Shown in pieces: positions 1,242-44,362 of a stretch of DNA of 61,259 bases. Origin of the DNA: an uncultured Bacteroidales bacterium (GTDB taxonomy: Bacteria > Bacteroidota > Bacteroidia > Bacteroidales > BM520); the NCBI GenBank assembly GCA_964594665.1, contig CAZQNY010000005.1:1-61259 (forward strand). Reading direction: 5' to 3'. Both the position numbers and the translations under genes were made by a program. The notes beneath the pieces are model-generated. The model was not told the origin of the DNA and did no database searches. It was given only the letters and a program-made list of their open reading frames with translations. The first letter of the stretch is position 1. Each line of letters begins with the position of its first letter.

Positions 1242-1249
1242 TATATTTG
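1242..1249 (+). promoter_or_regulatory. Candidate -7 element (TATATTTG) for the polyferredoxin gene
   Basis: Exact TAnnTTTG in an AT-rich gap, 30 nt before the ATG at 1280. Confidence 0.5.
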
Positions 1250-1279: not shown

Positions 1280-3448
1280 ATGCAGGTAGACAGAAGAGAT
1301 TTTATAAGAGTAAGTTCGAAAATCGCCGTTGGTAGTGCGACGGTATCAACATTACCGGTACTTACCCAATGTACAAAGGCCGTTTTTGATGTTTATAACA
1401 TAGATCCTGATTTATGTATAGGATGCGGTGACTGCATTCCTGCGTGCTATTATAAGGCGCTGGAATTACCTGTGGAAACCCAATACACCATCGAGAAGGA
1501 GTCGTGTACAGAGTGCGGTAAATGCCGTGATGTTTGTCATGATGATGCCATTACAGTATGTGGCGTTGATTACCGGATTGATAAGGAGAAGTGTACGGAT
1601 TGTGGGCGATGTGTATCAACATGTGAGCATGATGCAATTAAAATAGCGTATGTTTATTACAATATTGACGAAGAGCTGTGCCGCGATTGTGGGAAGTGTG
1701 TGGATGTTTGTCCTGAGGATGCCATAAATATTAGTCCCGCGCTGCATAATATAATACCTGAGGCCTGCCGCGACTGCGGGCTGTGCGTCGATCGGTGTCC
1801 TGAGAATGCTATTCATGTCAGCGTTGTGGAGCATGATATAAACCGTGAAACATGCCGTGATTGTGGCGAATGTGTGCCACATTGTGAATACGGTGCCTTG
1901 AAAGTGTCGGTTGTAAACCATGCCATAAACAAGGAGCTGTGTACCGACTGTGGCGAGTGTATGCCAAAATGTGATGAGCATGCCATTAGTATTGCTGTAA
2001 AACAACATTATATCGACCGGCAGGAGTGTATTGATTGTGGTGAATGTGAAGAAAAGTGTGAAGAGAATGCCATAAATATATCTGTTATAACTCATGATAT
2101 AGACACAGATAATTGTATTGAGTGTGGATTATGCGCACCGCTATGCCCTGAAGAGGCTATTGAAATTTCCGTAAGCGATTACGATATAAACAGTAATTGT
2201 GTGGGTTGTGGCGAATGTAAGGAGGCCTGCGAAGAGGAGGGTGCTTCATGTATTTCCTGGGTGAATGGAATTAATTATTACATTGTGGGTTCAAACTGTC
2301 ATTGCGGTGGAAAGCCCTGTGTGTCGAATTGCCCGGAAAATGCTGTTACCATTGTAAATAACAAAGCCGTTATAAATCATGATTTGTGTACCCGTTGTGG
2401 AATCTGCGCCGATGTTTGTCCTAAAAGTGCTATTACTCCCTGTAAGGTTCAGATTGATCAAACCGATTGTATTCATTGTGGAGCCTGTTATGATGAATGT
2501 GAATACGATGCTGTTACCCGCCATGTTCCTCCCAATTATCATGAACCACGGATTAATACCGATAAATGTACCAACTGTAACGACTGTATAACGCTTGGTT
2601 TTTGCGATAAAGATGCTATTGTACGTACGATACCTTCCAATTACCAGGATCCGTTTATTGATATAAACAAGTGTACAAATTGCGGGGATTGCATTACAGA
2701 TAACTTTTGTGATAAGGGAGCCATAAAAGTGGAGGATCCGGTACCCTACCACGATCCGGTGATCCTTTCGGATAAATGTACCAACTGCGGTGATTGTATC
2801 GAAGACTCCTTCTGTCCGCATAATGCAATTTACAAGGATGTTCCTCAGGATTATCATGCTCCGTATATCGATAAATCGTTGTGTGTGAATTGCGATGAGT
2901 GCGTGCTCGACAATTATTGCCCCTATAGCAGTATTGAGCGAATTGTGCCTCCTGATTATAATCAGCCGTTTATTGATGAAGATGCCTGTACACAGTGTGA
3001 TGAGTGTGTGCGCGATGCATTTTGTGATTTTGATGCTATCGAAAAACAATACCCGTCGGGTTACCATGAGCCGGTCGTGGAGCTTAATAAGTGTACTAAA
3101 TGCGGTGAGTGTGTGACTTCCGAAGTGTGTGAATGGGATGCCATCAGTCGTGTGGAACCAACGGAATACCATGAGCCTTTTATCGACCAGGAGACCTGTA
3201 CCGATTGTGGAGATTGTTATAAAGCTGAGGTCTGTGAAGAGGGAGCTATTCTTAAGCTTTTGCCGGAGAATTATGTGTCACCCTTTATCGATAACGATAA
3301 ATGTACCAGTTGCGGCGACTGTTGGGGCTCTTGTGAAGATGATGCCCTGAAACGTGATCTTCATCGGGCTGTCATTGACCCGACGCTATGTATGGCCTGT
3401 GGAAAATGCGAAATCCTTTGTCCGGTAGGCGCTATTAGTGAGAAATGA
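1280..3448 (+). CDS. Tat-signal (probably lipoprotein) polyferredoxin with 22 ferredoxin-type four-Cys motifs
   Basis: N-terminal DRRDFIR twin-arginine motif and LTQC31; 14 CxxCxxCxxxC, 7 CxxCxxCxxxxxC and 1 CxCxxxxCxxxC motifs; 92 Cys in 722 aa by manual count. Confidence 0.9.
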   Translation: MQVDRRDFIRVSSKIAVGSATVSTLPVLTQCTKAVFDVYNIDPDLCIGCGDCIPACYYKALELPVETQYTIEKESCTECGKCRDVCHDDAITVCGVDYRIDKEKCTDCGRCVSTCEHDAIKIAYVYYNIDEELCRDCGKCVDVCPEDAINISPALHNIIPEACRDCGLCVDRCPENAIHVSVVEHDINRETCRDCGECVPHCEYGALKVSVVNHAINKELCTDCGECMPKCDEHAISIAVKQHYIDRQECIDCGECEEKCEENAINISVITHDIDTDNCIECGLCAPLCPEEAIEISVSDYDINSNCVGCGECKEACEEEGASCISWVNGINYYIVGSNCHCGGKPCVSNCPENAVTIVNNKAVINHDLCTRCGICADVCPKSAITPCKVQIDQTDCIHCGACYDECEYDAVTRHVPPNYHEPRINTDKCTNCNDCITLGFCDKDAIVRTIPSNYQDPFIDINKCTNCGDCITDNFCDKGAIKVEDPVPYHDPVILSDKCTNCGDCIEDSFCPHNAIYKDVPQDYHAPYIDKSLCVNCDECVLDNYCPYSSIERIVPPDYNQPFIDEDACTQCDECVRDAFCDFDAIEKQYPSGYHEPVVELNKCTKCGECVTSEVCEWDAISRVEPTEYHEPFIDQETCTDCGDCYKAEVCEEGAILKLLPENYVSPFIDNDKCTSCGDCWGSCEDDALKRDLHRAVIDPTLCMACGKCEILCPVGAISEK
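1505..2197 (+). repeat. Intragenic repeat block A: 8 units, about 29 aa (87 nt) period
   Basis: Motifs 2-9: CxxCGxCxxxC plus an 18-aa linker (17 aa in the last unit), consensus near xxxAIxVSVxxHxIxxEx. Confidence 0.85.
2468..3301 (+). repeat. Intragenic repeat block B: 8 units with 22-aa linkers, 35 aa (105 nt) period for motifs 14-20
   Basis: Motifs 13-20, linker consensus near xxDAIxRxxPxxYHxPFIDxxK; near-identical DNA gataaatgtaccaactg at about 2561 and 2771. Confidence 0.85.
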
Positions 3449-3493
3449 TTACCTTAGTACACCTCAAATTTGTACTAACTCAATTTACTTACC

Positions 3494-4840
3494 ATGAAGA
3501 ATATTTTTTTCACCGTGAGCATGCTCATTAGTGTAATGATTGTTTTTGCTCAGCAGGACACATCAGAAATACCGGATAATGTTAAAACCGGATGGACTTT
3601 TGGTGCCCTTCCGGCTATTGCCTATGATACTGATCTGGGTTTTAAATACGGGGCATTGGTAAACTTTTTTTATTATGGTGATGGCACTACTTATCCTAAG
3701 TACCTGCACAGTATTTATTATGAATTAAGCACGACAACCAAAGGCAGTACACTGAGCAAGTTTTATTATGATAGCGATCAGCTAATGAAGAATTATTATC
3801 TCCGTCTTACTGCATCTTTTAATTATATCAAAGACAGGGCTTTTGATTTTTATGGTTTTAATGGTTACAGGAGTTCGTATTATCCTGAGCTGGCAACAAC
3901 CGGTGATACGGAATATCTTTCGCGTATGTTTTATCGTCTGGAACGCAAAAGGACAAATGTAACGGTTGATTTTCAGGGCAGTATTACCAGTGAGCAGTTC
4001 AGATGGATTGCCGGTTTGGGATATTTTAGTTATAACCTGGGTTCTGTTGATATTGAGCGTTTGAATAAAGGAAAATCGGGAGGGGATTTATTGCCCTCCC
4101 AGGATACTGTTCCCGGGTTGTGGGAGAATTATTGTTCATGGGGTGTTATCCCGGAGCAAGAGCAGGAAGGGGGCTCATTCGACCTGTTTAAGCTGGGTGT
4201 TGTATACGATAGCCGGGATAATGAGGCAAACCCACAGCGAGGGGTTTGGACTGAGGCAATTTTATCCGCTTCTTCAGGTATGGTAGGTTCTTTTGGTAAG
4301 CCTTTTTCGAAATTCACCTTTACGCACCGCCAGTATTTTACCTTGTGGCCCGATCATCTTACATTTGCTTATCGTTTGGGCTATCAGCAAACACTGTCAG
4401 GGACATCACCGCATTATTTTGAGCCCTTCATGGCCAGTAGCTGGCCGGGGTCGGCATATAGTGAGGGCCTTGGAGGATCCAGAAGCCTGAGAGGCGTGAT
4501 GCGCAACCGCGTTGTGGGTAATGGAACTGGTTATGCTAATTTTGAACTCAGGTATAAAGTTTTTAAAACGGTTATTTTTAATCAAAACCTCTATATTGCG
4601 CTTACTCCGTTCCTTGATTTGGGCCGGGTTTTTGTCCCTTATGACATTGATACTGAAAATGTTCCTGCTGATGAATATAACAGGTGGTTTACTGATGAGG
4701 AAGGCTTGCATGCCGGAGCAGGAGCCGGTATTTATATAGCCCTTAATGAGAACTTTATTCTTGCCGTTAACCATGGGCGTGCATTGGATTCCCGTGATGG
4801 AACAGCAGGAACCTATATCAATATCGGATTCTTGTTTTAA
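3494..4840 (+). CDS. Omp85/BamA-TamA-family outer-membrane beta-barrel without POTRA domains
   Basis: Sec signal ending VFA/QQ; VYDSRDNEANPQRG and GLGGSRSLRG (loop-6 VRGF-like) motifs; C-terminal beta-signal YINIGFLF; barrel starts right after the signal. Confidence 0.8.
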   Translation: MKNIFFTVSMLISVMIVFAQQDTSEIPDNVKTGWTFGALPAIAYDTDLGFKYGALVNFFYYGDGTTYPKYLHSIYYELSTTTKGSTLSKFYYDSDQLMKNYYLRLTASFNYIKDRAFDFYGFNGYRSSYYPELATTGDTEYLSRMFYRLERKRTNVTVDFQGSITSEQFRWIAGLGYFSYNLGSVDIERLNKGKSGGDLLPSQDTVPGLWENYCSWGVIPEQEQEGGSFDLFKLGVVYDSRDNEANPQRGVWTEAILSASSGMVGSFGKPFSKFTFTHRQYFTLWPDHLTFAYRLGYQQTLSGTSPHYFEPFMASSWPGSAYSEGLGGSRSLRGVMRNRVVGNGTGYANFELRYKVFKTVIFNQNLYIALTPFLDLGRVFVPYDIDTENVPADEYNRWFTDEEGLHAGAGAGIYIALNENFILAVNHGRALDSRDGTAGTYINIGFLF

Positions 4841-4845
4841 CTTTG
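4838..4845 (+). promoter_or_regulatory. Candidate -7 element (TAACTTTG, followed by CA) for the que genes
   Basis: Exact TAnnTTTG overlapping the barrel stop codon, 21 nt before the queD ATG. Confidence 0.5.
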
Positions 4846-4866: not shown

Positions 4867-5442
4867 ATGAAAATACGTAAGGCTTTTCGTTTTGAAGGAG
4901 CTCATATTGTGCGCAATTGCTCTTCGCAACGCTGTAAATATAATATCCACGGGCATTCCTATGGTGTTGAGGTTACTATTGAATCCAATCAGCTTGATAA
5001 TGGCTATATGGTTATGGATTTTATGTTACTTGATAAGGTAAAGCTGCTTGTGGATAGCTTTGATCATTCCTACAGTTTGTGGGATCGTGAATCGGATGAT
5101 TTTAAATCGTGGATCCATGCCAATACACAGCGCGTAGCCGAAATACCCATTTCTCCTTCTGCCGAAGGGTATGCACTTATGTTTTATTTTATTATTGATA
5201 AGATTTTGGAAAATACGGTTTTCCGTAATGGCGAGGGGCTCATCAGGCTGCATTCCGTTAAAGTACATGAAACAAGTACCGGTTTTGCTGAGGCCTTCAG
5301 GGAGGATCTTAATCTTGTAAAATTTACTCTTGAGGATATACAGTTTTCTTCACCTATTCATGATGAGTGGCCCTCAGACTGGTGGGGAGATTTAAAATCA
5401 GGTAAGAAATATAATAATCCGGAGGTGGAACAGAATCTGTAA
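4867..5442 (+). CDS. queD: 6-carboxy-5,6,7,8-tetrahydropterin synthase, long QueD2-like form
   Basis: FEGAHIVRNC, CKYNIHGHSY (Cx4HGH), FDHS and VHET motifs; next to queE and queF. Confidence 0.85.
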   Translation: MKIRKAFRFEGAHIVRNCSSQRCKYNIHGHSYGVEVTIESNQLDNGYMVMDFMLLDKVKLLVDSFDHSYSLWDRESDDFKSWIHANTQRVAEIPISPSAEGYALMFYFIIDKILENTVFRNGEGLIRLHSVKVHETSTGFAEAFREDLNLVKFTLEDIQFSSPIHDEWPSDWWGDLKSGKKYNNPEVEQNL

Positions 5443-6257
5443 TGCAGGGCAGTGAGAATGCCATATTGCGTTTGGCCCGGGAAGGGTTGTTCCCTGTTGT
5501 TGAGGACGGAAAGACGGCCTCTACAGGGTTGTCGGTTTCGGGCACATTGCAGGGTGAGGGTAAGCTGGCGGGAATGCCATCTCTTTTTCTTCGGCTTTTC
5601 GGCTGTAATCTTAACTGCCACTGGAGGCTGCCCGATGGAACTATCTCTCCGTGTGATACTCCTTCAGCAATTCAGTCGGGCATGCCCGTTACAAAGGTTC
5701 CGGCAGAGGATCTTGCCCGTCGTGTAGCCCAAAACCTTGGTGCCATTTCACATTTGGTTATTACCGGTGGTGAACCTGTTTTACAGGCTGACAGCCTGGT
5801 TGTTTTTCTGGATTATCTGCATCATTACAACCCTTTGGTGAAGGTAACCATGGAGACCAATGGTACACTTTTTTGTGAACCTCTTGCTCAACGGCTTAAC
5901 CTGGTAAGTATTAGTCCTAAACTTGACTCTGCTGATGCTATGGGCACAATGCACCGCGAAACAAGAATTAATACAGCTGTTTTGCAGGATTATCTTGATT
6001 ATCGAAATTCCAACCCTGCCATGGATTTGCAGCTTAAGTTTGTTATTGCTTCTGAAGAAGATGAAAAACAGGTGATCACAATTCTGGATACCCTACATGG
6101 TTATTCCGGCGATGATATTTTGTTAATGCCATTGGGCTCGGATACTGCAGAGCTTGCACAAACAACAACAACCGTTGTTGGTATGGCTATCCGCAATGGA
6201 TGGCGTTTTGCGCCCCGAATGCATATTGCCTTGTTTGGCTGTGGTGAAGGGGTATAA
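5442..6257 (+). CDS. queE: 7-carboxy-7-deazaguanine synthase (radical SAM) with expanded Cys motif
   Basis: TLQGEG, FLRLFGCNLNC...PCDT, VITGGEP, METNGT, SISPKL and LKFVI motifs; TAATG overlap with queD. Confidence 0.85.
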   Translation: MQGSENAILRLAREGLFPVVEDGKTASTGLSVSGTLQGEGKLAGMPSLFLRLFGCNLNCHWRLPDGTISPCDTPSAIQSGMPVTKVPAEDLARRVAQNLGAISHLVITGGEPVLQADSLVVFLDYLHHYNPLVKVTMETNGTLFCEPLAQRLNLVSISPKLDSADAMGTMHRETRINTAVLQDYLDYRNSNPAMDLQLKFVIASEEDEKQVITILDTLHGYSGDDILLMPLGSDTAELAQTTTTVVGMAIRNGWRFAPRMHIALFGCGEGV

Positions 6258-6268
6258 ATAATTGAATT

Positions 6269-7138
6269 ATGGAAGAAAACCTTACCCATCTGGGGCAACG
6301 TTCGGGATACCCTCAGCAGTATGACCCTTCAGTGCTGGAGCCTGTCCCGAGAAGCATTAATCGTACTGCATATGGCATCGACGACTCGACACCCGGTTTT
6401 CTGGGCTTTGATGTGTGGCATGCATGGGAAGTAAGTTTCCTCACCCGCAGGGGAATGCCTGTTGTCGGGGTGTTGAAGATTATTATCCCTCAAAGCAGTC
6501 CGTTTATTGTTGAAAGCAAGTCGTTGAAGCTATATCTTAACTCCTTTAATATGACCCGTATGGGGAATACAAAGCAGGAGGGTATTAAATTGCTTGTTGC
6601 AACGGTTCAGAATGACCTTGACAGGATCCTTGAATCCTTGCCTACAGTCGCTTTTTTCGACGGCCCTGATGAGGCAGAGAATGATTTTGTTCATTGGGAG
6701 CTTCTTGAGGAGAAGTATGATTTCTCGGATCTGGACTTTACACATTTTAATGAATCGCCGGAAGTATTGGTTGGGGACAATGGTATAAAAGCATTTCAGC
6801 TGGGCAGTCATTTATTACGTAGCAATTGCAAAGTTACGTTCCAGCCCGACTGGGGTTCGGTTTTTATAACCTTTAAGGGCGACAGGGGCCCGGCTCCGGA
6901 GGCCTTGATGCGCTATCTGGTGAGTTTCCGGAATGAGAATCATTTTCATGAAGAGGTATGTGAGATGATTTATAAACGCCTGTGGGATGCGTATCATCCT
7001 GAAGAACTGGGCGTGGCATGCCTTTACACACGCCGCGGAGGTATTGATATCTCTCCGGTCAGGGTTTCTTCTCCGGCATTGTTGCCCGATACGTTGCTTA
7101 GCCCCCGGGTACTTGGAAATAAACTCTACAGAGGTTAG
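6269..7138 (+). CDS. queF: NADPH-dependent preQ0 reductase, long two-domain form
   Basis: VESKSLKLYLNSF, LRSNCKVTFQPDWGSV (catalytic Cys/Asp), HFHEEVCE and YTRRGGIDI motifs. Confidence 0.92.
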   Translation: MEENLTHLGQRSGYPQQYDPSVLEPVPRSINRTAYGIDDSTPGFLGFDVWHAWEVSFLTRRGMPVVGVLKIIIPQSSPFIVESKSLKLYLNSFNMTRMGNTKQEGIKLLVATVQNDLDRILESLPTVAFFDGPDEAENDFVHWELLEEKYDFSDLDFTHFNESPEVLVGDNGIKAFQLGSHLLRSNCKVTFQPDWGSVFITFKGDRGPAPEALMRYLVSFRNENHFHEEVCEMIYKRLWDAYHPEELGVACLYTRRGGIDISPVRVSSPALLPDTLLSPRVLGNKLYRG

Positions 7139-20032: not shown

Positions 20033-21919
20033 TTAATCTTTCGGATTACTGATTTCAATATGTGAGAATTCAAGATCGGAATTTCCGTAATAATAGATCC
20101 TGAACTCCACATTTTCAACAGGCCGGATTGTCGTAAATGGAATCTCCAGCGGCGCTCCGGCTTCTGTTTTTGACATCTCCCGGGGAGTGAGCTTTATCGA
20201 TCCCAACACATTCTGACCATAATCGGCAACAATATCCAAAACCGCAATGGCTTTATCGCTGTCGCCTGCTTCGCATTTTGCATAAAAGCACGCCTTGTAA
20301 TGCCCGGCGGGCAACGTTATATACGGACCATATACAATGTGCTTGTATTCGAGCTCTGTGCTGTCGCGAAAAGCTGTTAGCAAACTGCTGTCAGACGATA
20401 TTTTGCATTTATCGTTGAATTTTAAATCCTTTAATGTCAGGGTAGTATCAAAAGGCAGCAACTCATATCGGCAAACATTGCAGTCGCCGATATTGAACTC
20501 CTCTCCGGCCTTAATCAGCGTGTTTCCGAATTGTTCTATTTGTTCAGGGAACGTTTCAAGCCACATATCTTTGATAAGATATAGGTTGGGCTGCATAAAT
20601 ACGCTGTCCACCAGAGCGGGGTTTCTGACTTCGCATTTATCGTGAGGCGTGGCTTTGATATTTTCAGGATCGACAAATGAGGAGCCATACGAATTCCAGT
20701 ATTCGCTGATAATACCAATTTTACCAAGCTCCCTGAATTCCCCAACAACCTGCGCCTTTGGTGTCAGACGCTTGGGATACACATATTTATAACCATATGG
20801 AATACTGCCTGCGCCAATGATTACAGTGAGGATGGCTAAACCAATAAGGATCTTCCGTGGCCGTTTATACTGAATCGCTTCAAGCATCATCAGATTTGCC
20901 AGCCATACAACAATGTAAACACTGACAAAATACCTGCGTGCAACACCATTAAGATACGACCAATGCGAAAGAATATTAATAAACAGAAAAGCCAGACCGT
21001 CGAGGAGAAATACCAACGCCCAGCGCCAGGAAACTTTTTTTGCACTCCCGGAAATAAACAGTGTTGCGGGAATGGCGATAAGAAGGACTACAACAAGATA
21101 GTTGTAAATCAGTAGCAGCGGGTTGGCATGATTGGGATGAAAGCCTTTTGCAATATTTCCTCCAAGAATCTTCAGACTTCCAAGTATCTCATCAGGTTTG
21201 TTTAGTAACTGTTTGTTGTATTCATAAAAATCGCTTACAACAGCAGCATTTTTCAATAATAAAATGATGATGCCACCGCAAATTATTGCAGCTGTGATAG
21301 TTATTGCAGTGGGCAAATGAATTTTTCTTTGTTGCTTTAAATGATAAAAAAGGGCTGTACCTATGATAATGGCAATGGTAACAAAGGCTGTTTCAGTAAC
21401 CCAGACTGCTGCTGTAAAGGCCAGGAACACCGGAAGGATTTCCCGGATAACGGGCCAGACACCTGATGGGGCTTTTTTCTCAAAACGAGTGATAAAGTAT
21501 AAACCAATTGCCAGTAAACTGTAATGTAAACCCAGAGAATAACGGGTAAGGCCTAAAAATGGCGAAACAGGTAGAAACCAGATAACCGCAAAAATGAGTT
21601 TTGTGCTTTTTTTATTCAGAAAGGTGGAAAACGCGAAGTAACCCAACAGTAAAAGCAGGTAGTGCGTTATGGATTCTGACCAGAGATGATTTATGTGAAA
21701 CAGCTTGTAGGGGATCTGCCCCAGCAAGGGTACAATTGATCCCACCCTGTCCTGTCCCCAGAAATAGAGATCGCGGGGAAGGGAAAAATCGTGCAACATC
21801 AGTAATATTATGCCATCATCAGCATTTAGTAAAGGATAAAAAACGGAAGAGTACATTAACCACGAGATAATAATTATGACAAGCAATATCAGATAATGCA
21901 AAATGGTTTTTCTCTTCAT
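20033..21919 (-). CDS. Multi-pass membrane protein, putative GT-C-fold glycosyltransferase with C-terminal beta-sandwich domain
   Basis: TM1 followed by LNADDG...YFWGQDRVGS, about 11-12 TM segments, soluble tail with YGPYITLPAGHYKACF; start moved to MKRKT at 21919. Confidence 0.5.
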   Translation of the reverse strand: MKRKTILHYLILLVIIIISWLMYSSVFYPLLNADDGIILLMLHDFSLPRDLYFWGQDRVGSIVPLLGQIPYKLFHINHLWSESITHYLLLLLGYFAFSTFLNKKSTKLIFAVIWFLPVSPFLGLTRYSLGLHYSLLAIGLYFITRFEKKAPSGVWPVIREILPVFLAFTAAVWVTETAFVTIAIIIGTALFYHLKQQRKIHLPTAITITAAIICGGIIILLLKNAAVVSDFYEYNKQLLNKPDEILGSLKILGGNIAKGFHPNHANPLLLIYNYLVVVLLIAIPATLFISGSAKKVSWRWALVFLLDGLAFLFINILSHWSYLNGVARRYFVSVYIVVWLANLMMLEAIQYKRPRKILIGLAILTVIIGAGSIPYGYKYVYPKRLTPKAQVVGEFRELGKIGIISEYWNSYGSSFVDPENIKATPHDKCEVRNPALVDSVFMQPNLYLIKDMWLETFPEQIEQFGNTLIKAGEEFNIGDCNVCRYELLPFDTTLTLKDLKFNDKCKISSDSSLLTAFRDSTELEYKHIVYGPYITLPAGHYKACFYAKCEAGDSDKAIAVLDIVADYGQNVLGSIKLTPREMSKTEAGAPLEIPFTTIRPVENVEFRIYYYGNSDLEFSHIEISNPKD

Positions 21920-21982
21920 CAGAATAATGATTATTGGTGTTGTAAATATGTTGTAAGCAAATGTATTGATTTTGTCGGGCAT

Positions 21983-22009
21983 AAAAAAACCGGCAGGAAT
22001 GCTGCCGGG
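21983..22009 (-). terminator. Intrinsic terminator after the RRM gene
   Basis: ccggcag/ctgccgg stem, followed by T7 on the minus strand. Confidence 0.8.
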
Positions 22010-22028
22010 TATAAAAAGTATTTCGTTT

Positions 22029-22415
22029 TTAATAACGATCTGATCTGTTGTTGTCGCGGTAGTTGTTTCTTCCACCACCGCGATGATCATCGTTGCGACG
22101 ATAATTGTCGTTTTTGCGGAATCCGCCACCGCCACCCTGACGATAACCACCGCCGCCACCGCCGCGATTATCTTCACGTGGACGAGCTTTTTTAACAATA
22201 ACTGTACTTCCCTCAAAATCTGTTTCGTTGAGTTGATCAATGGCTGCAGATGCTTCATCATCATTATCCATTTCAACAAAACCGTACTTTTTTGAATAAC
22301 CGGTCTCCCGATCCATAATTACCCTGGCACTTTTTACTTCGCCAAAGGGTTCAAATAAAGCTCTCAGGCTGTCATCGTTTGTTCCGGAGCTCAATTTTGC
22401 AATAAAAATGTTCAT
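22029..22415 (-). CDS. RRM-domain RNA-binding protein with Gly/Arg/Asp-rich tail
   Basis: RNP2 NIFIAKL, RNP1 KKYGFVEM, then VKKARPRE and a low-complexity tail. Confidence 0.93.
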   Translation of the reverse strand: MNIFIAKLSSGTNDDSLRALFEPFGEVKSARVIMDRETGYSKKYGFVEMDNDDEASAAIDQLNETDFEGSTVIVKKARPREDNRGGGGGGYRQGGGGGFRKNDNYRRNDDHRGGGRNNYRDNNRSDRY

Positions 22416-40919: not shown

Positions 40920-41774
40920 CTAGAATTCCCAGAAATCATGTTCGTACTGATGAATTTCATTATTTATGCGTTCTGATTCAAGCAGGGCGTCAATTCCGGT
41001 AGCATATTCAGAAATGTATCGGTCGAAACGATTGGACTCCTTGTAAACAGTACTATGGAAAATGCGTTTCCAGAAAACATCATCATACGTAAGCTTTTGG
41101 GCGTCGTTCTGAGGGTTGTAAACTTCAGCTTTTGCAAAAGTTTCGCGTGCTTCAGGATAATAGATCCAGAAAGTGGGAGCATAACCACGGAAGTTGCCAT
41201 CCTGATCAAGGTTATCGCGAACAGGGCAGATACCCAGAACACGGGCTTCCATTACAGAGCGTTGCTTGTCAAAGAACCAGTCTTCCTTTATACGAATACG
41301 TTTTACATCCATCGCATTAAATTCTGAATGGATAATGGTATCATAGTAATCGTAAGGAGGATAGCTGCGCTGTAGCGTCATGGTATCTGTTCGTGCCAAT
41401 CGGCTCATAATTTCCTCATAGGTTATGGGTACCTCAAATTCATCTGTAGGCATTGAAGCATCATAGGCAGTTATCTGACCTTCTCTGAGGCCGTCCATGA
41501 TAACTGTCATAAGGCTTCTCCACTTATTTTGGGGTACTTCAGGGTAGTAGAAAGGCTGGTTTACACGCTCGCGCATATCAATAACACGCCATACACGTTT
41601 CGACCAGATCATATCAGCTTCGCGAACATAAACGTAAGGAATAGGTCTCTTGTCAACAAGATTAACTTTGTCGTAGACTCCATCGCGGGGAGTACTCACT
41701 ACCTGTGCATTGAGCGACATGGCACCGGCGATGGTGAGGCTTAAAAGAGTAACTATTGCAACAAATTTTTTCAT
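40920..41774 (-). CDS. gldN: T9SS/gliding protein GldN (PorN)
   Basis: READMIWSKRVWRVID, IKEDWFFDKQRS and FWIYYPEAR motifs; operon position. Confidence 0.93.
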   Translation of the reverse strand: MKKFVAIVTLLSLTIAGAMSLNAQVVSTPRDGVYDKVNLVDKRPIPYVYVREADMIWSKRVWRVIDMRERVNQPFYYPEVPQNKWRSLMTVIMDGLREGQITAYDASMPTDEFEVPITYEEIMSRLARTDTMTLQRSYPPYDYYDTIIHSEFNAMDVKRIRIKEDWFFDKQRSVMEARVLGICPVRDNLDQDGNFRGYAPTFWIYYPEARETFAKAEVYNPQNDAQKLTYDDVFWKRIFHSTVYKESNRFDRYISEYATGIDALLESERINNEIHQYEHDFWEF

Positions 41775-41789
41775 ATATATTACCTCCGG

Positions 41790-43403
41790 TTATTTTATTG
41801 TCAGGTTAATAGCATTTAGTTTTCGTGAGGATCCGTCAGGGCCTTTGGCATAGATATTTTCCAGCCAGATTTTGTCGTCCCGGCGTGAATTACGGATTCT
41901 TGAGAGCATATCTTCAGAAAGGCGGTTACCGCTTCCCTGCAGTGTGATAAGGTCACCGTTACGCTGACGGGCTACGAAGTCAAATTTTGTGATTTCGAAG
42001 TTTAACTCAAATTCAAAATCTTCAGGCATTTGAGGAATAATTGCTCCGGCAGTAACAAGAAGGTTCTTGTTGATTTTACCGCCATCACTACCACCAATTT
42101 TAGCTACCGGATTGGGAACCCTCTTAATACGGAAGTCTGCAGTTCCCATTTCAACCATATTGCCATCCTGCTCTGCAGTAACACTGATGGTAGTAGTACC
42201 TGTAGCATCGTCAGGGAGTGTAACAATCCATTCCCCGGTTTCAGCGTTCATTTTCAGTGTTCCCACACTAATGGAAGCCTGAAGCATATCACTGCCAATA
42301 CCTGGTGAAGAGATAGATACAGGGTTGTCAACACCTTTGTAGAAAACGTTCATTTTTGTTGGCGCTACCGTTAATGACGGCTTGGCAACAATGTATGAAT
42401 CGTTAAATGGATATGTGTTGATTTCTCCTGAAGGTCCTTTTACTTCAATAACACCGGCATAGGAATGAATTCCTTCTTCGTTGGCAGGGAAACGGAGTTT
42501 TACTTTTCCGCTGTCGCCGGGAAGAACTGTTGCATTTGCATACATATCATCTGTGAGCTGACTAACACCTTTCATAACACGAACGGTAGGAGCCTGTTTA
42601 CTATCGTATGCAGCAACGAGTACCTCAGCTTCATATTCTCCGTTAAGGAAAATATAGTTACTTGTGGGAATAACTTTGGCATCAATATCATCAAACTTAA
42701 AGTCTTCTGCACTGATATTGTTCAAAAAATAATTCAATACACCGAATTCAGCATTTTGAACATCCATAATAAGTTTGTTAAGGAAAGTTACATCAGCAGC
42801 AAGAATAGTGTGGTAGAAGTGATGCATTTCCCAGGTTTGTGGTTTTCCGTCGGCATCGTGGTATTTGCCATCAGTTTCCAGTCCCAGGTTAATGTTAATA
42901 TCTTCTTTGCCATCAAAGAGAGCCATCATATTGGCTTTATACTCATTGATTTTGTTTTTTAGTTCACCTGCTTTTCCTTTGGTTCCGTCAGGAGACGATC
43001 CGATGAAGAAATTTGTAGGTTCGTCGTAGCTATCTCTGTTGCCAATTTCAGCGAGTTTTAAACCTTTAATTTCATCAACGGTTTTTTTCTCTGTTAGCGC
43101 AGTGACATCATTTTTCAGGTTTTCAATGTAGGTAATCATTTCCTCGGAGAGCTGATTTGCCTGTTTGGCTTTTTCCCAGGAAGGACCTACTTTGGCCTGG
43201 TTAATCATATATTGTTGTTCAAACTGGGCATAGATGTTTTGAATTTTATCTTCAAACGTCTTATTGGTTTGTTCAACGCTGTCGTTCACGATAACAAAAG
43301 CTTCAAGGATTTCCACTGATACGTTCAGGGCCAGCATAGCCGTGAGTACCAGGTACATCATCCCGATCATCTTTTGCCGTGGGGTTTCTTTATATCCAGC
43401 CAT
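41790..43403 (-). CDS. gldM: T9SS/gliding motor protein GldM (PorM)
   Basis: ETPRQKMIGMMYLVLTAMLALNVS and MNVFYKGVDNPVSIS motifs. Confidence 0.95.
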   Translation of the reverse strand: MAGYKETPRQKMIGMMYLVLTAMLALNVSVEILEAFVIVNDSVEQTNKTFEDKIQNIYAQFEQQYMINQAKVGPSWEKAKQANQLSEEMITYIENLKNDVTALTEKKTVDEIKGLKLAEIGNRDSYDEPTNFFIGSSPDGTKGKAGELKNKINEYKANMMALFDGKEDININLGLETDGKYHDADGKPQTWEMHHFYHTILAADVTFLNKLIMDVQNAEFGVLNYFLNNISAEDFKFDDIDAKVIPTSNYIFLNGEYEAEVLVAAYDSKQAPTVRVMKGVSQLTDDMYANATVLPGDSGKVKLRFPANEEGIHSYAGVIEVKGPSGEINTYPFNDSYIVAKPSLTVAPTKMNVFYKGVDNPVSISSPGIGSDMLQASISVGTLKMNAETGEWIVTLPDDATGTTTISVTAEQDGNMVEMGTADFRIKRVPNPVAKIGGSDGGKINKNLLVTAGAIIPQMPEDFEFELNFEITKFDFVARQRNGDLITLQGSGNRLSEDMLSRIRNSRRDDKIWLENIYAKGPDGSSRKLNAINLTIK

Positions 43404-43450
43404 TTATAATGAGCTTTATTTTGTTTTTAAATGGGTTAATTGAACTGTAA

Positions 43451-44362
43451 CTACTTAACTTTTACATTCATGGCAGAAAGCATATTGCCATAAACAGTAT
43501 TGAGAGCTGCCACGTTCTGCGTAAGTGCGTCAGCCTGCTTTTTATAGTTTTCAGTTGTAGCGATTGATTCCTTCATGTTTTTCATAAAGGCTTCAATGGC
43601 TGTACCCATTTGACCGGTAACTTTGGATTGTGCATCTGAATTTTTCAGCTGCATTTCGTATACTGCATTGAGTGCTGCCAGATTCTGAGTTAGTTTCTGG
43701 AAGGTTTCATCGTATGCTTTATTTTCTGACGTCACTGCTTTGGCTGCACTTGAATAAGTTTCAGAGAGTTTACCTGCTGCAGTAGCTGCACTTTGAACAT
43801 TTTGCAGGAAGGCTTCGGTTCCGGCGAGGTCCTTGTTCATGGTTTCAGCTGTTTTTACATAGGTGTCAGAGAGTTTATCTGCTGATGAGGAAGCTGTCTC
43901 CATACTTTTGGCAAACTTGTCACTTGCTACCTTAGCTTTTGAAATATCAGATAACGCATTCGTTGTTTCGCTAAGGTTTGTAAGTCCTTTTCCTAAATCT
44001 TCAATAAGCTTGGAATCGATTTTTGCTTTTTTGAGCATTTCATCGAGTTCATTTGTAGGAGAACCACCTCTTTGAACAGCTCCACCTTTTGGCATGCCCT
44101 TTTTGTCTGATTTTTTACCATACATACCTGCAAGTTCAGGATACACCAGGCTCCAGTCGGGTTCAACGTGTGGCGGCTCGAATGCCGAGAAGAAAAAGAT
44201 AATTGCTTCGGTCAACATCCCCGCAAAAAGCATTTCGTTGGCACCGGGAATATGTGTAATTTTAAACAGTGCCCCTACAATAACAACCGATGCACCGATA
44301 CCATATAGCTTGGCCATAAAATTCTTGAAGAACCTGCTCTGAACAATCTTATTTAATCCCAT
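43451..44362 (-). CDS. gldL: T9SS/gliding motor protein GldL (PorL)
   Basis: YGIGASVVIVGALFK, TEAIIFFFSAFEP, PDWSLVYPEL and LNTVYGNMLSAM motifs. Confidence 0.95.
   Translation of the reverse strand: MGLNKIVQSRFFKNFMAKLYGIGASVVIVGALFKITHIPGANEMLFAGMLTEAIIFFFSAFEPPHVEPDWSLVYPELAGMYGKKSDKKGMPKGGAVQRGGSPTNELDEMLKKAKIDSKLIEDLGKGLTNLSETTNALSDISKAKVASDKFAKSMETASSSADKLSDTYVKTAETMNKDLAGTEAFLQNVQSAATAAGKLSETYSSAAKAVTSENKAYDETFQKLTQNLAALNAVYEMQLKNSDAQSKVTGQMGTAIEAFMKNMKESIATTENYKKQADALTQNVAALNTVYGNMLSAMNVKVK

What the first reader, a model, noticed from the sequence alone, without database searches (positions are those of the whole stretch)
1280..4840. Polyferredoxin plus POTRA-less Omp85 barrel: possible Fe-S analogue of porin-cytochrome conduits
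Seen: same strand, 45-nt gap and no U-tailed terminator between them. The 448-aa partner is a signal peptide plus a barrel, with no POTRA domains. Established: MtrAB, PioAB and MtoAB pair a periplasmic redox wire with an adjacent barrel gene for extracellular electron transfer. Inference: the barrel could dock, thread or surface-display the wire. Caveats: Omp85 barrels have about 16 strands, much narrower than MtrB. POTRA-less Omp85 proteins also occur in Bacteroidota in unrelated contexts, so the adjacency may be chance.
Basis: inference. Interest (0 to 1): 0.8.

Follow-up and report, generated by a model that had tools for sequence, protein, structure and literature searches.

The report
Giant exported polyferredoxin beside housekeeping Omp85 barrel
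The two genes are real: an unusually long exported iron-sulfur "wire" protein sits next to an outer-membrane barrel gene. Comparison with other genomes indicates the pairing is a local accident of gene order. Relatives of the wire protein instead travel with a different, porin-like barrel and a membrane electron-transfer protein, in a four-gene set I could not find described.

Summary
Window 1280-3448 encodes a 722-aa polyferredoxin with a twin-arginine export motif (DRRDFIR) and about 22 [4Fe-4S] binding motifs. After a 45-nt spacer with no terminator, 3494-4840 encodes a 448-aa Omp85-family barrel with 16 predicted strands and no POTRA domains.

- **Barrel side:** the barrel belongs to a widespread, highly conserved Bacteroidales family. 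None of 80 species-level orthologous loci carries any ferredoxin-like gene within 5 kb.
- **Adjacency:** it is seen only in a narrow clade of four lineages (69-77% polyferredoxin identity), where the flanking genes are syntenic too.
- **Polyferredoxin side:** the protein is the longest member of a family of exported polyferredoxins, most with a lipoprotein-type signal, that I found no paper describing. About 28 clusters at 50% identity carry 2-11 motifs each.
- **Conserved partners:** in 7 of 7 informative independent loci, relatives sit in a cassette of small secreted Cys protein, NapH-like membrane Fe-S protein (6 of 7), a ~420-460-aa protein and the polyferredoxin. The ~420-460-aa protein is one family in six loci and is modelled as an 18-strand porin-like barrel. 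None has an Omp85 neighbour.
- **In the window:** none of these partners occurs in the 61 kb.

So the "wire plus barrel" idea has a basis at family level, but with a different barrel. The Omp85 pairing is most likely incidental.

The parts
1242..1249 (+). TATATTTG, a match to the Bacteroidota -7 promoter consensus TAnnTTTG, 31 nt before the polyferredoxin ATG
   Evidence: There is no further + strand match until 4360, so none in the spacer before the barrel. The motif count over the whole window is not above chance (71 found against 64 expected), so this is suggestive only.
1280..3448 (+). Polyferredoxin gene, 722 aa, with about 22 [4Fe-4S] binding motifs. It is the longest member found of a family of Tat-exported polyferredoxins, most of them with a lipoprotein-type signal.
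   Evidence: Purifying selection: against L004, non-synonymous difference 0.147 versus synonymous 0.83 (saturated); L004 against L001 gives dN/dS 0.05.
1289..1372 (+). Export signal: Tat motif DRRDFIR (residues 4-10), a hydrophobic stretch, then Cys31 at the lipobox position (L-T-Q-C) followed by T-K-A|V
   Evidence: R5, R6, F8 and C31 are invariant in the 23-sequence family alignment A3. About 25 relatives have a canonical lipobox (ISGC, LKAC, FSSC and similar), whereas the window clade has Q or K at position -1. tatA lies directly after the closest relative's gene in L135.
1397..2269 (+). N-terminal half: roughly ten 29-aa units, each with CxxCxxCxxxC
   Evidence: There is no DNA-level tandem repeat, so the expansion is old or has diverged.
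2531..3295 (+). C-terminal half: seven 35-aa units of the form 'P-x-x-Y-H-x-P-x-I-D-x-x-K-C-T-x-C-G-D-C-x5-C'
   Evidence: One to three copies of the same unit occur in relatives P0153, P0155, P0163 and P0167.
3449..3493 (+). 45-nt spacer with an 8-bp hairpin at 3454-3478 (TTAGTACA / TGTACTAA), no U tract and no TAnnTTTG motif
   Evidence: An equivalent hairpin with a different stem sequence occurs in L001/L004 (-9.4 kcal/mol) and a weak one in L002/L005. RNAalifold finds no consensus and there is no Rfam match.
3494..4840 (+). Omp85-family barrel without POTRA domains (noNterm type), 448 aa; Sec signal peptide ending VFA|QQ, then 16 strands
   Evidence: About 95 invariant columns across 18 family members, window included. 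It has an L6-type 'RG' motif (SLRGVMRN at residue 333).
4838..4845 (+). TAACTTTG, a -7-like promoter motif overlapping the barrel stop codon, 22 nt before queD
4867..7138 (+). Context: queD-like (4867-5442), queE-like (5442-6257) and queF (6269-7138), on the same strand with 26-nt, overlapping and 11-nt junctions
   Evidence: They are syntenic with the polyferredoxin-barrel pair in L001, L002 and L005.

Best explanation
Gene 1280-3448 encodes a Tat-exported periplasmic polyferredoxin, a chain of about 22 [4Fe-4S] clusters.

What the family is. This protein is the much-expanded member of a family that databases annotate only as '4Fe-4S binding protein'. Members are exported by Tat, and most carry a canonical lipobox. 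They are normally encoded in a four-gene cassette: a small secreted Cys/His protein, a NapH-like membrane Fe-S protein, an 18-strand porin-like outer-membrane barrel, and the polyferredoxin.

How it most likely works (inferred, by analogy with NapG/NapH and NosG/NosH). The polyferredoxin folds and receives its clusters in the cytoplasm and is exported by Tat. In the periplasm it relays electrons supplied across the inner membrane by a NapH-like partner, from the quinol pool or a cytoplasmic donor. The acceptor at or near the outer membrane is unknown. The cassette's neighbours hint at metals: ECF sigma factor, FecR and TonB receptor in one pair of loci, ArsP/HMA permeases in two, and MntP in one.

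The situation in this window. Here the gene sits away from those partners, between a GSCFA-family gene and an Omp85 barrel gene. The barrel is an orthologue of a conserved, stand-alone POTRA-less Omp85 protein of Bacteroidales, with its own and still unknown envelope function. It is probably co-transcribed with the polyferredoxin, since the spacer has no promoter motif and no terminator. Even so, the adjacency is a lineage-specific gene order, not a porin-ferredoxin conduit.

Shown: the domain content, the export motif, the family, the cassette, the barrel folds (as models) and the distribution. Inferred: the direction of electron flow, the partner proteins in this organism, and co-transcription.
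For: Identity of the polyferredoxin:
- Fer4 motifs and their count.
- Family alignment A3 keeps R5, R6, F8 and C31 invariant.
- About 28 representative clusters carry RRxF followed by a lipobox-type Cys, including all 14 best hits (E 5e-97 to 1e-40).
- tatA lies next to the closest relative's gene.
- The gene is under strong purifying selection.

Cassette in relatives:
- Seven independent loci were examined: L135, L136, L137, L141/142, L145, L146 and L147.
- All 7 have a ~420-464-aa gene immediately upstream. HMM or BLAST shows these are one family in 6 of 7.
- The small ~125-aa family is present in 7 of 7, and the Fer4_5 NapH-like protein in 6 of 7.
- The partner family is modelled as 18 antiparallel strands (pLDDT 79.5, pTM 0.76). 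Its best PDB folds are the 18-strand porins MOMP, OprD/Occ and AlgE, E down to 4e-12.
- NapH-like PF12801 proteins are a modular transmembrane electron-transfer device (PMC8238504).

Barrel independence:
- NF047779 matched at full length, with more than 4600 homologues.
- 541 or more GTDB genomes carry a relative. Of the 80 best loci, none has a ferredoxin-like neighbour and no neighbour is conserved.
- L003 (57% identity) has no polyferredoxin.
- The Omp85 family and the 18-strand family are unrelated: hhalign probability 28%, over the signal peptide only.

Partners absent from the window: tblastn and HMM searches of all six frames find none.
Against: - The polyferredoxin-barrel order and the 44-50-nt spacer are kept in all four lineages of the clade, although synonymous sites are saturated.
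- The block polyferredoxin-barrel-queDEF is retained while the DNA after queF has been rearranged: pgk in the window, a Peptidase_S46 gene in L001, GtrA in L002. GSCFA precedes the block in both the window and L001. That fits an operon under some selection.
- No promoter motif separates the two genes.
- Family members have a striking habit of lying next to an outer-membrane barrel gene. Replacement of the 18-strand barrel by this one cannot be excluded.
- The rest of the genome is unseen. The source contig ends 96 nt before the window start, so neither the presence nor the absence of the usual partners in this organism is known.
- Only 7 family loci were sampled.
Confidence: 0.6

Rival explanations
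1. The 22-cluster polyferredoxin and the Omp85 barrel form a heme-free outer-membrane electron conduit, with the Omp85 barrel having replaced the family's usual 18-strand barrel as docking or threading partner.
For: - The adjacency and the short spacer without a terminator are conserved in 4 of 4 clade lineages.
- There is no promoter motif in the spacer.
- Relatives always lie next to an outer-membrane barrel gene.
- The usual 18-strand barrel is absent from the 61-kb window.
- The chain is about twice as long as in any relative, which could suit spanning the periplasm.
Against: - Barrel orthologues are conserved in hundreds of species with no polyferredoxin nearby (0 of 80 loci).
- The window barrel keeps every family-invariant column and shows no clade-specific remodelling.
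- Its closest relative outside the clade (L003) has no polyferredoxin.
- A 16-strand Omp85 lumen is too narrow to hold a folded 2x[4Fe-4S] domain. This rests on established structural knowledge: MtrB needs 26 strands to hold MtrA.
- The clade shares the surrounding gene order as well, so the adjacency is not independent evidence.
Confidence: 0.12
2. The Omp85 barrel acts in biogenesis rather than electron transfer. As a POTRA-less Omp85 it would help place or flip the exported polyferredoxin at the outer membrane, comparable to the BamA-RcsF and Slam-type routes, and the gene linkage would reflect a chaperone-client relation in this clade.
For: - The Omp85 superfamily is devoted to protein insertion and translocation, and noNterm members are proposed to act in membrane-protein biogenesis (PMC4104836).
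- The polyferredoxin family carries a lipobox Cys.
- Co-transcription is plausible.
Against: - It faces the same distribution argument: the barrel family is near-universal in Bacteroidales, whereas the polyferredoxin is rare.
- The window clade has a non-canonical lipobox (Q or K at position -1) and no acidic surface-export signal after the Cys.
- Relatives manage without an adjacent Omp85 gene.
Confidence: 0.08
3. The polyferredoxin is a stranded paralogue with no working partners: a cassette gene that was duplicated, expanded and moved, and is now functionally idle or on the way to loss.
For: - It is separated from all cassette partners in the window.
- One relative (L001) carries an in-frame TGA at a cluster Cys codon.
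- The lipobox is degenerate in the clade.
Against: - Strong purifying selection, with all Cys motifs kept across 69-77% identical lineages.
- The near-identical L004 has TGC at the L001 stop position, so a sequencing error is likely.
Confidence: 0.04

Closest known systems
NapG/NapH and NosG/NosH quinol-dehydrogenase modules (periplasmic nitrate and N2O reductase systems)
   Same: They combine a Tat-exported periplasmic multi-[4Fe-4S] ferredoxin with a membrane-integral Fer4_5 (PF12801) Fe-S protein. The cassette partners in L135 and L136 match NapH models at E 1e-21 and 4e-19. The window protein itself matches NapF and NapH ferredoxin modules.
   Different: It has about 22 cluster sites instead of 4. 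The family has a lipobox Cys. No terminal reductase gene lies in any cassette. An outer-membrane barrel and a small Cys protein are present instead. No NapH-like gene occurs in this window.
Porin-cytochrome conduits MtrAB, PioAB and MtoAB
   Same: A gene for a periplasmic multi-centre redox protein lies next to a gene for an outer-membrane beta-barrel. The idea of a wire reaching the outer membrane is shared.
   Different: There is no heme motif (0 CxxCH). The barrel is a 16-strand Omp85, or an 18-strand porin-like barrel in relatives, not a 26-strand MtrB/PioB type. The adjacency with the Omp85 barrel is not conserved.
Archaeal polyferredoxins (MvhB, EhbK/EhaP, FwdF)
   Same: They share the tandem 2x[4Fe-4S] ferredoxin repeats. 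The best solved-structure sequence match is MvhB (9sw6_G, E 7e-19), followed by FwdF. One JGI record names a family member 'energy-converting hydrogenase B subunit K'.
   Different: Those proteins are cytoplasmic subunits of hydrogenase or formylmethanofuran dehydrogenase complexes without signal peptides, at 25-30% identity. The window protein has a Tat signal and a bacterial envelope context.
noNterm (POTRA-less) Omp85 proteins (Heinz & Lithgow 2014, PMC4104836; Leptospira paralogues, PMC11358297)
   Same: A 16-strand Omp85 barrel preceded only by a signal peptide.
   Different: This is a specific, strongly conserved Bacteroidales subfamily (NF047779). No function has been shown for it, and none for the class.

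Membership tests
Porin-cytochrome conduit (MtrAB/PioAB/MtoAB) | The periplasmic partner is a multiheme c-type cytochrome with several CxxCH motifs | tested here: not met
   0 CxxCH motifs in 722 aa; there are 21 CxxCxxC Fe-S motifs instead.
Porin-cytochrome conduit (MtrAB/PioAB/MtoAB) | The barrel is of the MtrB/PioB type, about 26 strands and wide enough to sheath the redox protein | tested here: not met
   NF047779 Omp85 family; 16 strands in the AF2 model; BamA and TamA are the best fold matches.
Porin-cytochrome conduit (MtrAB/PioAB/MtoAB) | The two genes co-occur and are adjacent across lineages | tested here: not met
   0 of 80 barrel loci have a ferredoxin neighbour. 0 of 7 polyferredoxin-family loci have an Omp85 neighbour. 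They are adjacent only within one narrow clade.
Omp85 superfamily, noNterm class | 16-strand Omp85 barrel (PF01103/NF047779) with an L6-loop RG motif | tested here: met
   NF047779 E 1e-93 at full length. PF01103 is precomputed on most homologues. 16 strands. BamA/TamA/Sam50 fold matches. SLRGVMRN at residue 333, with R333 and G334 invariant.
Omp85 superfamily, noNterm class | No POTRA or other periplasmic N-terminal domain | tested here: met
   The signal helix (residues 2-19) is followed by the first strand at residue 34. The only Pfam hit is a sub-threshold one, DUF5982 at residues 30-63.
Polyferredoxin (tandem 2x[4Fe-4S] ferredoxin domains) | Repeated CxxCxxCxxxC(P) motifs in pairs | tested here: met
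   Fer4 E 7e-86 in 13 stretches; 21 motifs plus 1 degenerate site. Cluster content itself cannot be tested here.
Tat substrate | N-terminal S/T-R-R-x-F-L-K motif followed by a hydrophobic region | tested here: met
   DRRDFIR at residues 4-10. RRxF is invariant across 23 family members. tatA is adjacent in L135. Actual export was not tested.
Bacterial lipoprotein | Lipobox [LVI][ASTVI][GAS]-C at the end of the signal peptide | tested here: inconclusive
   The Cys is invariant in the family and the lipobox is canonical in about 25 relatives. The window has L-T-Q-C and L001/L004 have L-T-K-C, which is atypical at position -1. An alternative TKA|V signal peptidase I site follows.
NapGH/NosGH-type quinol dehydrogenase module | The Tat-exported ferredoxin is encoded together with a membrane Fer4_5 (NapH-like) protein | tested here: not met
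   Met in 6 of 7 relatives' loci, but no NapH-like gene lies in the 61-kb window or in L001-L005. The rest of the genome is unseen.
Polyferredoxin cassette found in this analysis (small Cys protein, NapH-like protein, 18-strand barrel, Tat polyferredoxin) | The polyferredoxin carries the family signature: RRxF, lipobox Cys, and the C-terminal 'DL(K/H)xAxID...C..CG.C' unit | tested here: met
   49% identity to P0153, E 5e-97; alignment A3; the window protein ends with ...DLHRAVIDPTLCMACGKCEILCPVGAISEK.
Polyferredoxin cassette found in this analysis (small Cys protein, NapH-like protein, 18-strand barrel, Tat polyferredoxin) | The gene lies directly downstream of the 18-strand barrel gene | tested here: not met
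   The upstream gene is GSCFA (PF08885, E 3e-83). HMM search for the barrel family in the window gives nothing better than E 0.48.

The most novel reading that the evidence does not exclude
A heme-free, iron-sulfur-based envelope electron conduit. A NapH-like inner-membrane protein would feed an exported polyferredoxin chain, which delivers electrons to or through an outer-membrane barrel for reduction of an external or periplasmic metal or other acceptor. In the window's clade the chain has doubled to 22 clusters, long enough to bridge the periplasm, and would use the adjacent Omp85 barrel in place of the usual 18-strand porin.
Probability: 0.1. Interest if true: 0.85.

Novelty: new variant of a known kind. 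Interest (0 to 1): 0.55.

Why it matters
All well-studied bacterial routes that carry electrons across the periplasm to the outer membrane use multiheme cytochromes. Tat-exported ferredoxins are known only as short (4-cluster) subunits of periplasmic reductases.

A 22-cluster exported polyferredoxin is therefore unusual. So is a conserved cassette that couples such proteins to a NapH-like membrane protein and a porin-like barrel. The cassette occurs in Bacteroidota, in a MAG labelled Gemmatimonadota, and in a 65% G+C locus of unidentified origin. Together these would be a different solution to periplasmic or extracellular electron transfer in anaerobes, possibly linked to metal handling.

For this window specifically, the practical lesson is that the neighbouring Omp85 gene should not be annotated as a redox partner. 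The real leads are the polyferredoxin family and its cassette. The cassette's 18-strand-barrel family has members in cultured Marinilabiliales (Carboxylicivirga caseinilyticus, Saccharicrinis), where genetic tests may be possible if the whole cassette is present there.

Tried and rejected
- **Word-indexed protein search with the polyferredoxin.** It returned only archaeal-type cytoplasmic polyferredoxins at 22-31% identity, plus short 40-42% matches over 7% of the query to unrelated ~700-aa proteins. It missed the true family, and the window's exact sequence is not in that collection. The family emerged only from the exhaustive HMMER search.
- **Profile search with alignment A3.** It timed out.
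- **Metagenome scan with alignment A1.** It gave only two true relatives (L004, L005). The remaining 49 loci were generic ferredoxins or HdrA, for example L028.
- **Selenocysteine reading of the in-frame TGA in L001.** Rejected, because the near-identical L004 has TGC there.
- **preQ1 riboswitch or other known RNA in the spacer before the barrel-queDEF genes.** There is no Rfam match, even at E up to 10 on the 181-nt stretch, and none at gathering score anywhere in the window. RNAalifold gives no consensus structure.
- **Recent DNA-level tandem duplication within the gene.** TRF finds none.
- **Homology between the 18-strand partner family and the Omp85 family.** hhalign probability is 28%, over the signal peptide only. 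Neither the partner family nor the small protein family gives a PDB sequence hit.
- **Cassette partners hidden elsewhere in the window.** tblastn and HMM searches of six-frame ORFs were negative. Pfam annotation of 20 further ORFs between 12.5 and 44.4 kb shows only housekeeping genes.
- **Structure prediction of locus-derived partner proteins.** This was solved by first retrieving the family through a protein search.
- **Literature searches for a periplasmic polyferredoxin-porin system.** No description was found.

Full report
**1. Observation**

Two same-strand ORFs occupy 1280-3448 (722 aa) and 3494-4840 (448 aa), separated by 45 nt.

The first ORF is saturated with ferredoxin motifs. Pfam Fer4 scores E 7e-86 in 13 stretches. 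A direct count gives 21 CxxCxxC motifs plus one degenerate four-Cys site, about 22 [4Fe-4S] sites in all. They are arranged as roughly ten 29-aa units, a central irregular part, and seven 35-aa 'PxxYHxPxIDxxKCTxCGDCx5C' units. There is no CxxCH heme motif. The N-terminus reads MQVDRRDFIRVSSKIAVGSATVSTLPVLTQC-TKA-V, which is a twin-arginine motif, a hydrophobic stretch and a Cys.

The second ORF matches NCBIfam NF047779 'Omp85 family outer membrane protein' from end to end (E 1e-93). An AlphaFold2 model built on 18 homologues (pLDDT 73.9, pTM 0.72) has a signal helix and then 16 strands starting at residue 34. Foldseek places it with the BamA, TamA and Sam50 barrels. It therefore has no POTRA domain.

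No terminator-like site lies in the spacer. The only convincing terminator in the first 8.6 kb follows pgk.

**2. The barrel is a widespread, self-standing family**

The word-indexed search returned more than 4600 homologues. Most are about 50% identical across the full length and come from Bacteroidales, Lentimicrobiaceae and Marinilabiliales MAGs. An 18-sequence alignment has 60% mean column identity and about 95 invariant columns, the window protein included.

I kept the 80 best loci, at 45-52% identity, with 5-kb flanks.
- None has a tblastn hit to the polyferredoxin.
- None contains any ORF of 70 aa or more with two or more CxxCxxC motifs.
- Clustering of the two nearest genes on each side shows no conserved neighbour. 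The commonest are a penicillin-acylase-like gene (18 of 80) and FabI (15 of 80).

The nearest barrel outside the window's clade (P0004, 57% identity) follows thioredoxin and Cu-oxidase_4 genes. Such a distribution fits a housekeeping envelope protein, not a dedicated redox partner. POTRA-less 'noNterm' Omp85 proteins are a recognised class of unknown function (PMC4104836).

**3. Where the adjacency does occur**

It is present in the window (the same sequence recurs on three assemblies), in L001/L004 (one species, 98.6% identical polyferredoxins), in L002 and in L005. That makes four lineages, with 69-77% identical polyferredoxins and about 77% identical barrels.

In these lineages queD, queE and queF follow the barrel, and in L001 GSCFA precedes the polyferredoxin. 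The adjacency is thus part of a conserved block, not an independent recurrence.

Two points count in its favour.
- What follows queF differs among the window (pgk), L001 (Peptidase_S46) and L002 (GtrA). The block is therefore more stable than its surroundings.
- The 44-50-nt spacer lacks both a terminator and a TAnnTTTG promoter motif in all of these loci. Such motifs sit before the polyferredoxin (1242) and before queD (4838).

Co-transcription is plausible but not shown.

**4. The polyferredoxin belongs to a real family with a different, conserved partner set**

The indexed search missed the family. An exhaustive HMMER search of 1.84 billion representatives found it. All 14 best hits (E 5e-97 to 1e-40, 37-49% identity, 269-412 aa), and about 28 clusters among the top 150, begin with RRxF followed 13-27 residues later by a lipobox-type Cys. 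R5, R6, F8 and C31 are invariant in a 23-member alignment.

Members carry 2-11 CxxCxxC motifs. The window protein has 21 and is by far the longest. Sources call these proteins only '4Fe-4S binding protein'.

I looked up the genomic context of eight members. One contig was too short to be informative. The other seven are independent loci: L135, L136, L137-140, L141-143, L145, L146 and L147-149. All seven show the same arrangement directly upstream of the polyferredoxin.
- **A ~120-140-aa secreted protein** with invariant Cys22, His52, Cys55 and Cys109 (numbering of the first sequence of A7). Present in 7 of 7.
- **A Fer4_5 membrane protein** matching NapH and NosR models at E 1e-21 to 1e-16. 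Present in 6 of 7.
- **A 417-464-aa protein with no Pfam or NCBIfam match.** It is a demonstrable single family in 6 of 7. In L147 the equivalent protein sits in the same position and shares the N-terminal 'C-K-S-x-L' motif.

This last family has 32 database members, all 'hypothetical'. They include proteins from the cultured Carboxylicivirga caseinilyticus and Saccharicrinis. Its AlphaFold2 model (pLDDT 79.5, pTM 0.76) is an 18-strand beta-barrel. Foldseek matches the 18-strand porins MOMP, OprD/Occ and AlgE (E down to 4e-12, TM 0.5-0.6). It is unrelated to the Omp85 family.

Extra neighbours of the cassette:
- tatA (L135);
- ECF sigma factor, FecR, a TonB-dependent receptor and DUF2202 (L141/L142);
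- ArsP_1 permeases, one with an HMA domain (L136, L145);
- MntP (L146).

L145 comes from a MAG labelled Gemmatimonadota, and L147 has 65% G+C. The cassette is therefore not confined to Bacteroidota. No cassette locus has an Omp85 gene.

**5. The window lacks the cassette partners**

tblastn and HMM searches of all six-frame ORFs of the window and of L001-L005 find no small-protein, NapH-like or 18-strand-barrel gene. The remainder of the window is housekeeping: HemN-like, a histidine kinase, AsmA, iPGM, GroEL, PheT, RecG and GldLMN.

There is a caveat. The source contig ends 96 nt before the window start, and two other assemblies also break 145-289 nt upstream of GSCFA. What lies further upstream, and in the rest of the genome, is unknown.

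**6. The gene is functional**

Against L004, non-synonymous difference is 0.147 while synonymous sites are saturated (0.83). Between L004 and L001, dN/dS is 0.05. An in-frame TGA at the Cys49 codon of L001 is TGC in L004, so it is probably an error.

**7. Mechanism**

Shown: the gene encodes a Tat-signal polyferredoxin of a family that is genetically tied to a NapH-like membrane protein and a porin-like outer-membrane barrel.

Established knowledge: NapH-like PF12801 proteins are modular devices that pass electrons between the membrane or cytoplasmic pool and extracytosolic redox proteins (PMC8238504). NapG-type ferredoxins are their Tat-exported periplasmic partners (my own knowledge of the Nap and Nos systems).

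Inference: the family members are elongated NapG-like relays, in most members tethered by a lipid, that carry electrons from the inner membrane towards an acceptor at the outer membrane. The barrel more likely admits a small substrate or anchors the complex than sheaths the protein, because 18 strands are too few to enclose a ferredoxin domain. The metal-related neighbours suggest metal reduction or acquisition, but this is a weak inference.

In the window clade the chain has doubled in length. The lipobox has an atypical Q or K at position -1, with a possible TKA|V signal-peptidase I site after it, so the protein may be soluble in the periplasm. Its partners in this organism are unknown.

**8. 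Verdict**

The specific proposal, an Fe-S wire plus this Omp85 barrel as a conduit, fails its own refutation test and all three defining features of porin-cytochrome systems. I rate it at about 0.1.

The general intuition finds an unexpected echo in the family's conserved cassette, which I could not find described in the literature.

- **Novelty:** a new variant of a known kind, namely NapGH-like periplasmic Fe-S relays.
- **Interest:** 0.55. It is moderate for the pair as stated and higher for the polyferredoxin family and its cassette.

Noticed in passing
L135:26-4253, L136:2178-6527, L137:4312-7002, L141:3492-7014, L145:1117-4895, L146:2100-6036, L147:2888-6894: Conserved cassette in relatives of the polyferredoxin: a small secreted Cys/His protein, a NapH-like Fer4_5 membrane protein, a ~420-460-aa protein modelled as an 18-strand porin-like barrel (no Pfam or NCBIfam family), and the Tat polyferredoxin. 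I found no paper describing it.
   Followed up: yes
L141:2088-10564; L136:6918-7907; L145:4962-6281; L146:1312-1881; L135:4071-4253: The cassette sits next to metal-related or export genes: ECF sigma factor, FecR, a TonB-dependent receptor and DUF2202; ArsP_1 permease, once with an HMA domain; MntP; tatA. This hints at a metal-linked role.
   Followed up: partly
L001:1357-1359: In-frame TGA replaces the second Cys codon of the first cluster motif (CIG*GDC). The near-identical L004 and the window have TGC. It is probably a sequencing error in a 5.9x contig, or a strain-specific nonsense mutation, rather than selenocysteine.
   Followed up: partly
L005:1522-2701: The barrel gene of this relative is split into two ORFs (1522-1896 and 1922-2701). 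This is either a frame break from an assembly error or a pseudogene.
   Followed up: no
window 3454-3478 (and the equivalent spacers in L001, L004, L002, L005): A small hairpin lies between the polyferredoxin and the barrel, with different stem sequences in the window (TTAGTACA/TGTACTAA) and in L001/L004 (GTTAGC.../...GCTAAC). The flanks TTACnTT and CTAAC are conserved. There is no U tract, no Rfam match and no RNAalifold consensus.
   Followed up: partly
window 1 (contig end 96 nt upstream); L001:1-145; L151:1-175: Three independent assemblies all break 145-289 nt upstream of the GSCFA gene. That suggests a repeat or some other element that is hard to assemble just outside the window.
   Followed up: no
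window 4867-7138: queD-like (191 aa, longer than usual), queE-like and queF all score below the NCBIfam equivalog cut-offs (for example QueF 251 bits against a cut-off of 293). No queC lies beside them. The set is tightly linked to the barrel gene in the clade.
   Followed up: no
window 1367-1372: The lipobox position -1 is Gln in the window and Lys in L001/L004, where about 25 relatives have Gly, Ala or Ser. The clade may have lost lipidation and be cleaved at TKA|V instead.
   Followed up: partly
window 20033-22279 (-): A 748-aa ORF with no Pfam match at E 1e-5 or better, lying among housekeeping genes.
   Followed up: no
window 40920-44362 (-): gldL, gldM and gldN (type IX secretion and gliding core) are present, confirming a Bacteroidota chromosome. 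The polyferredoxin sequence shows no recognisable type IX C-terminal sorting domain; its C-terminus is a ferredoxin unit ending ...CPVGAISEK.
   Followed up: no
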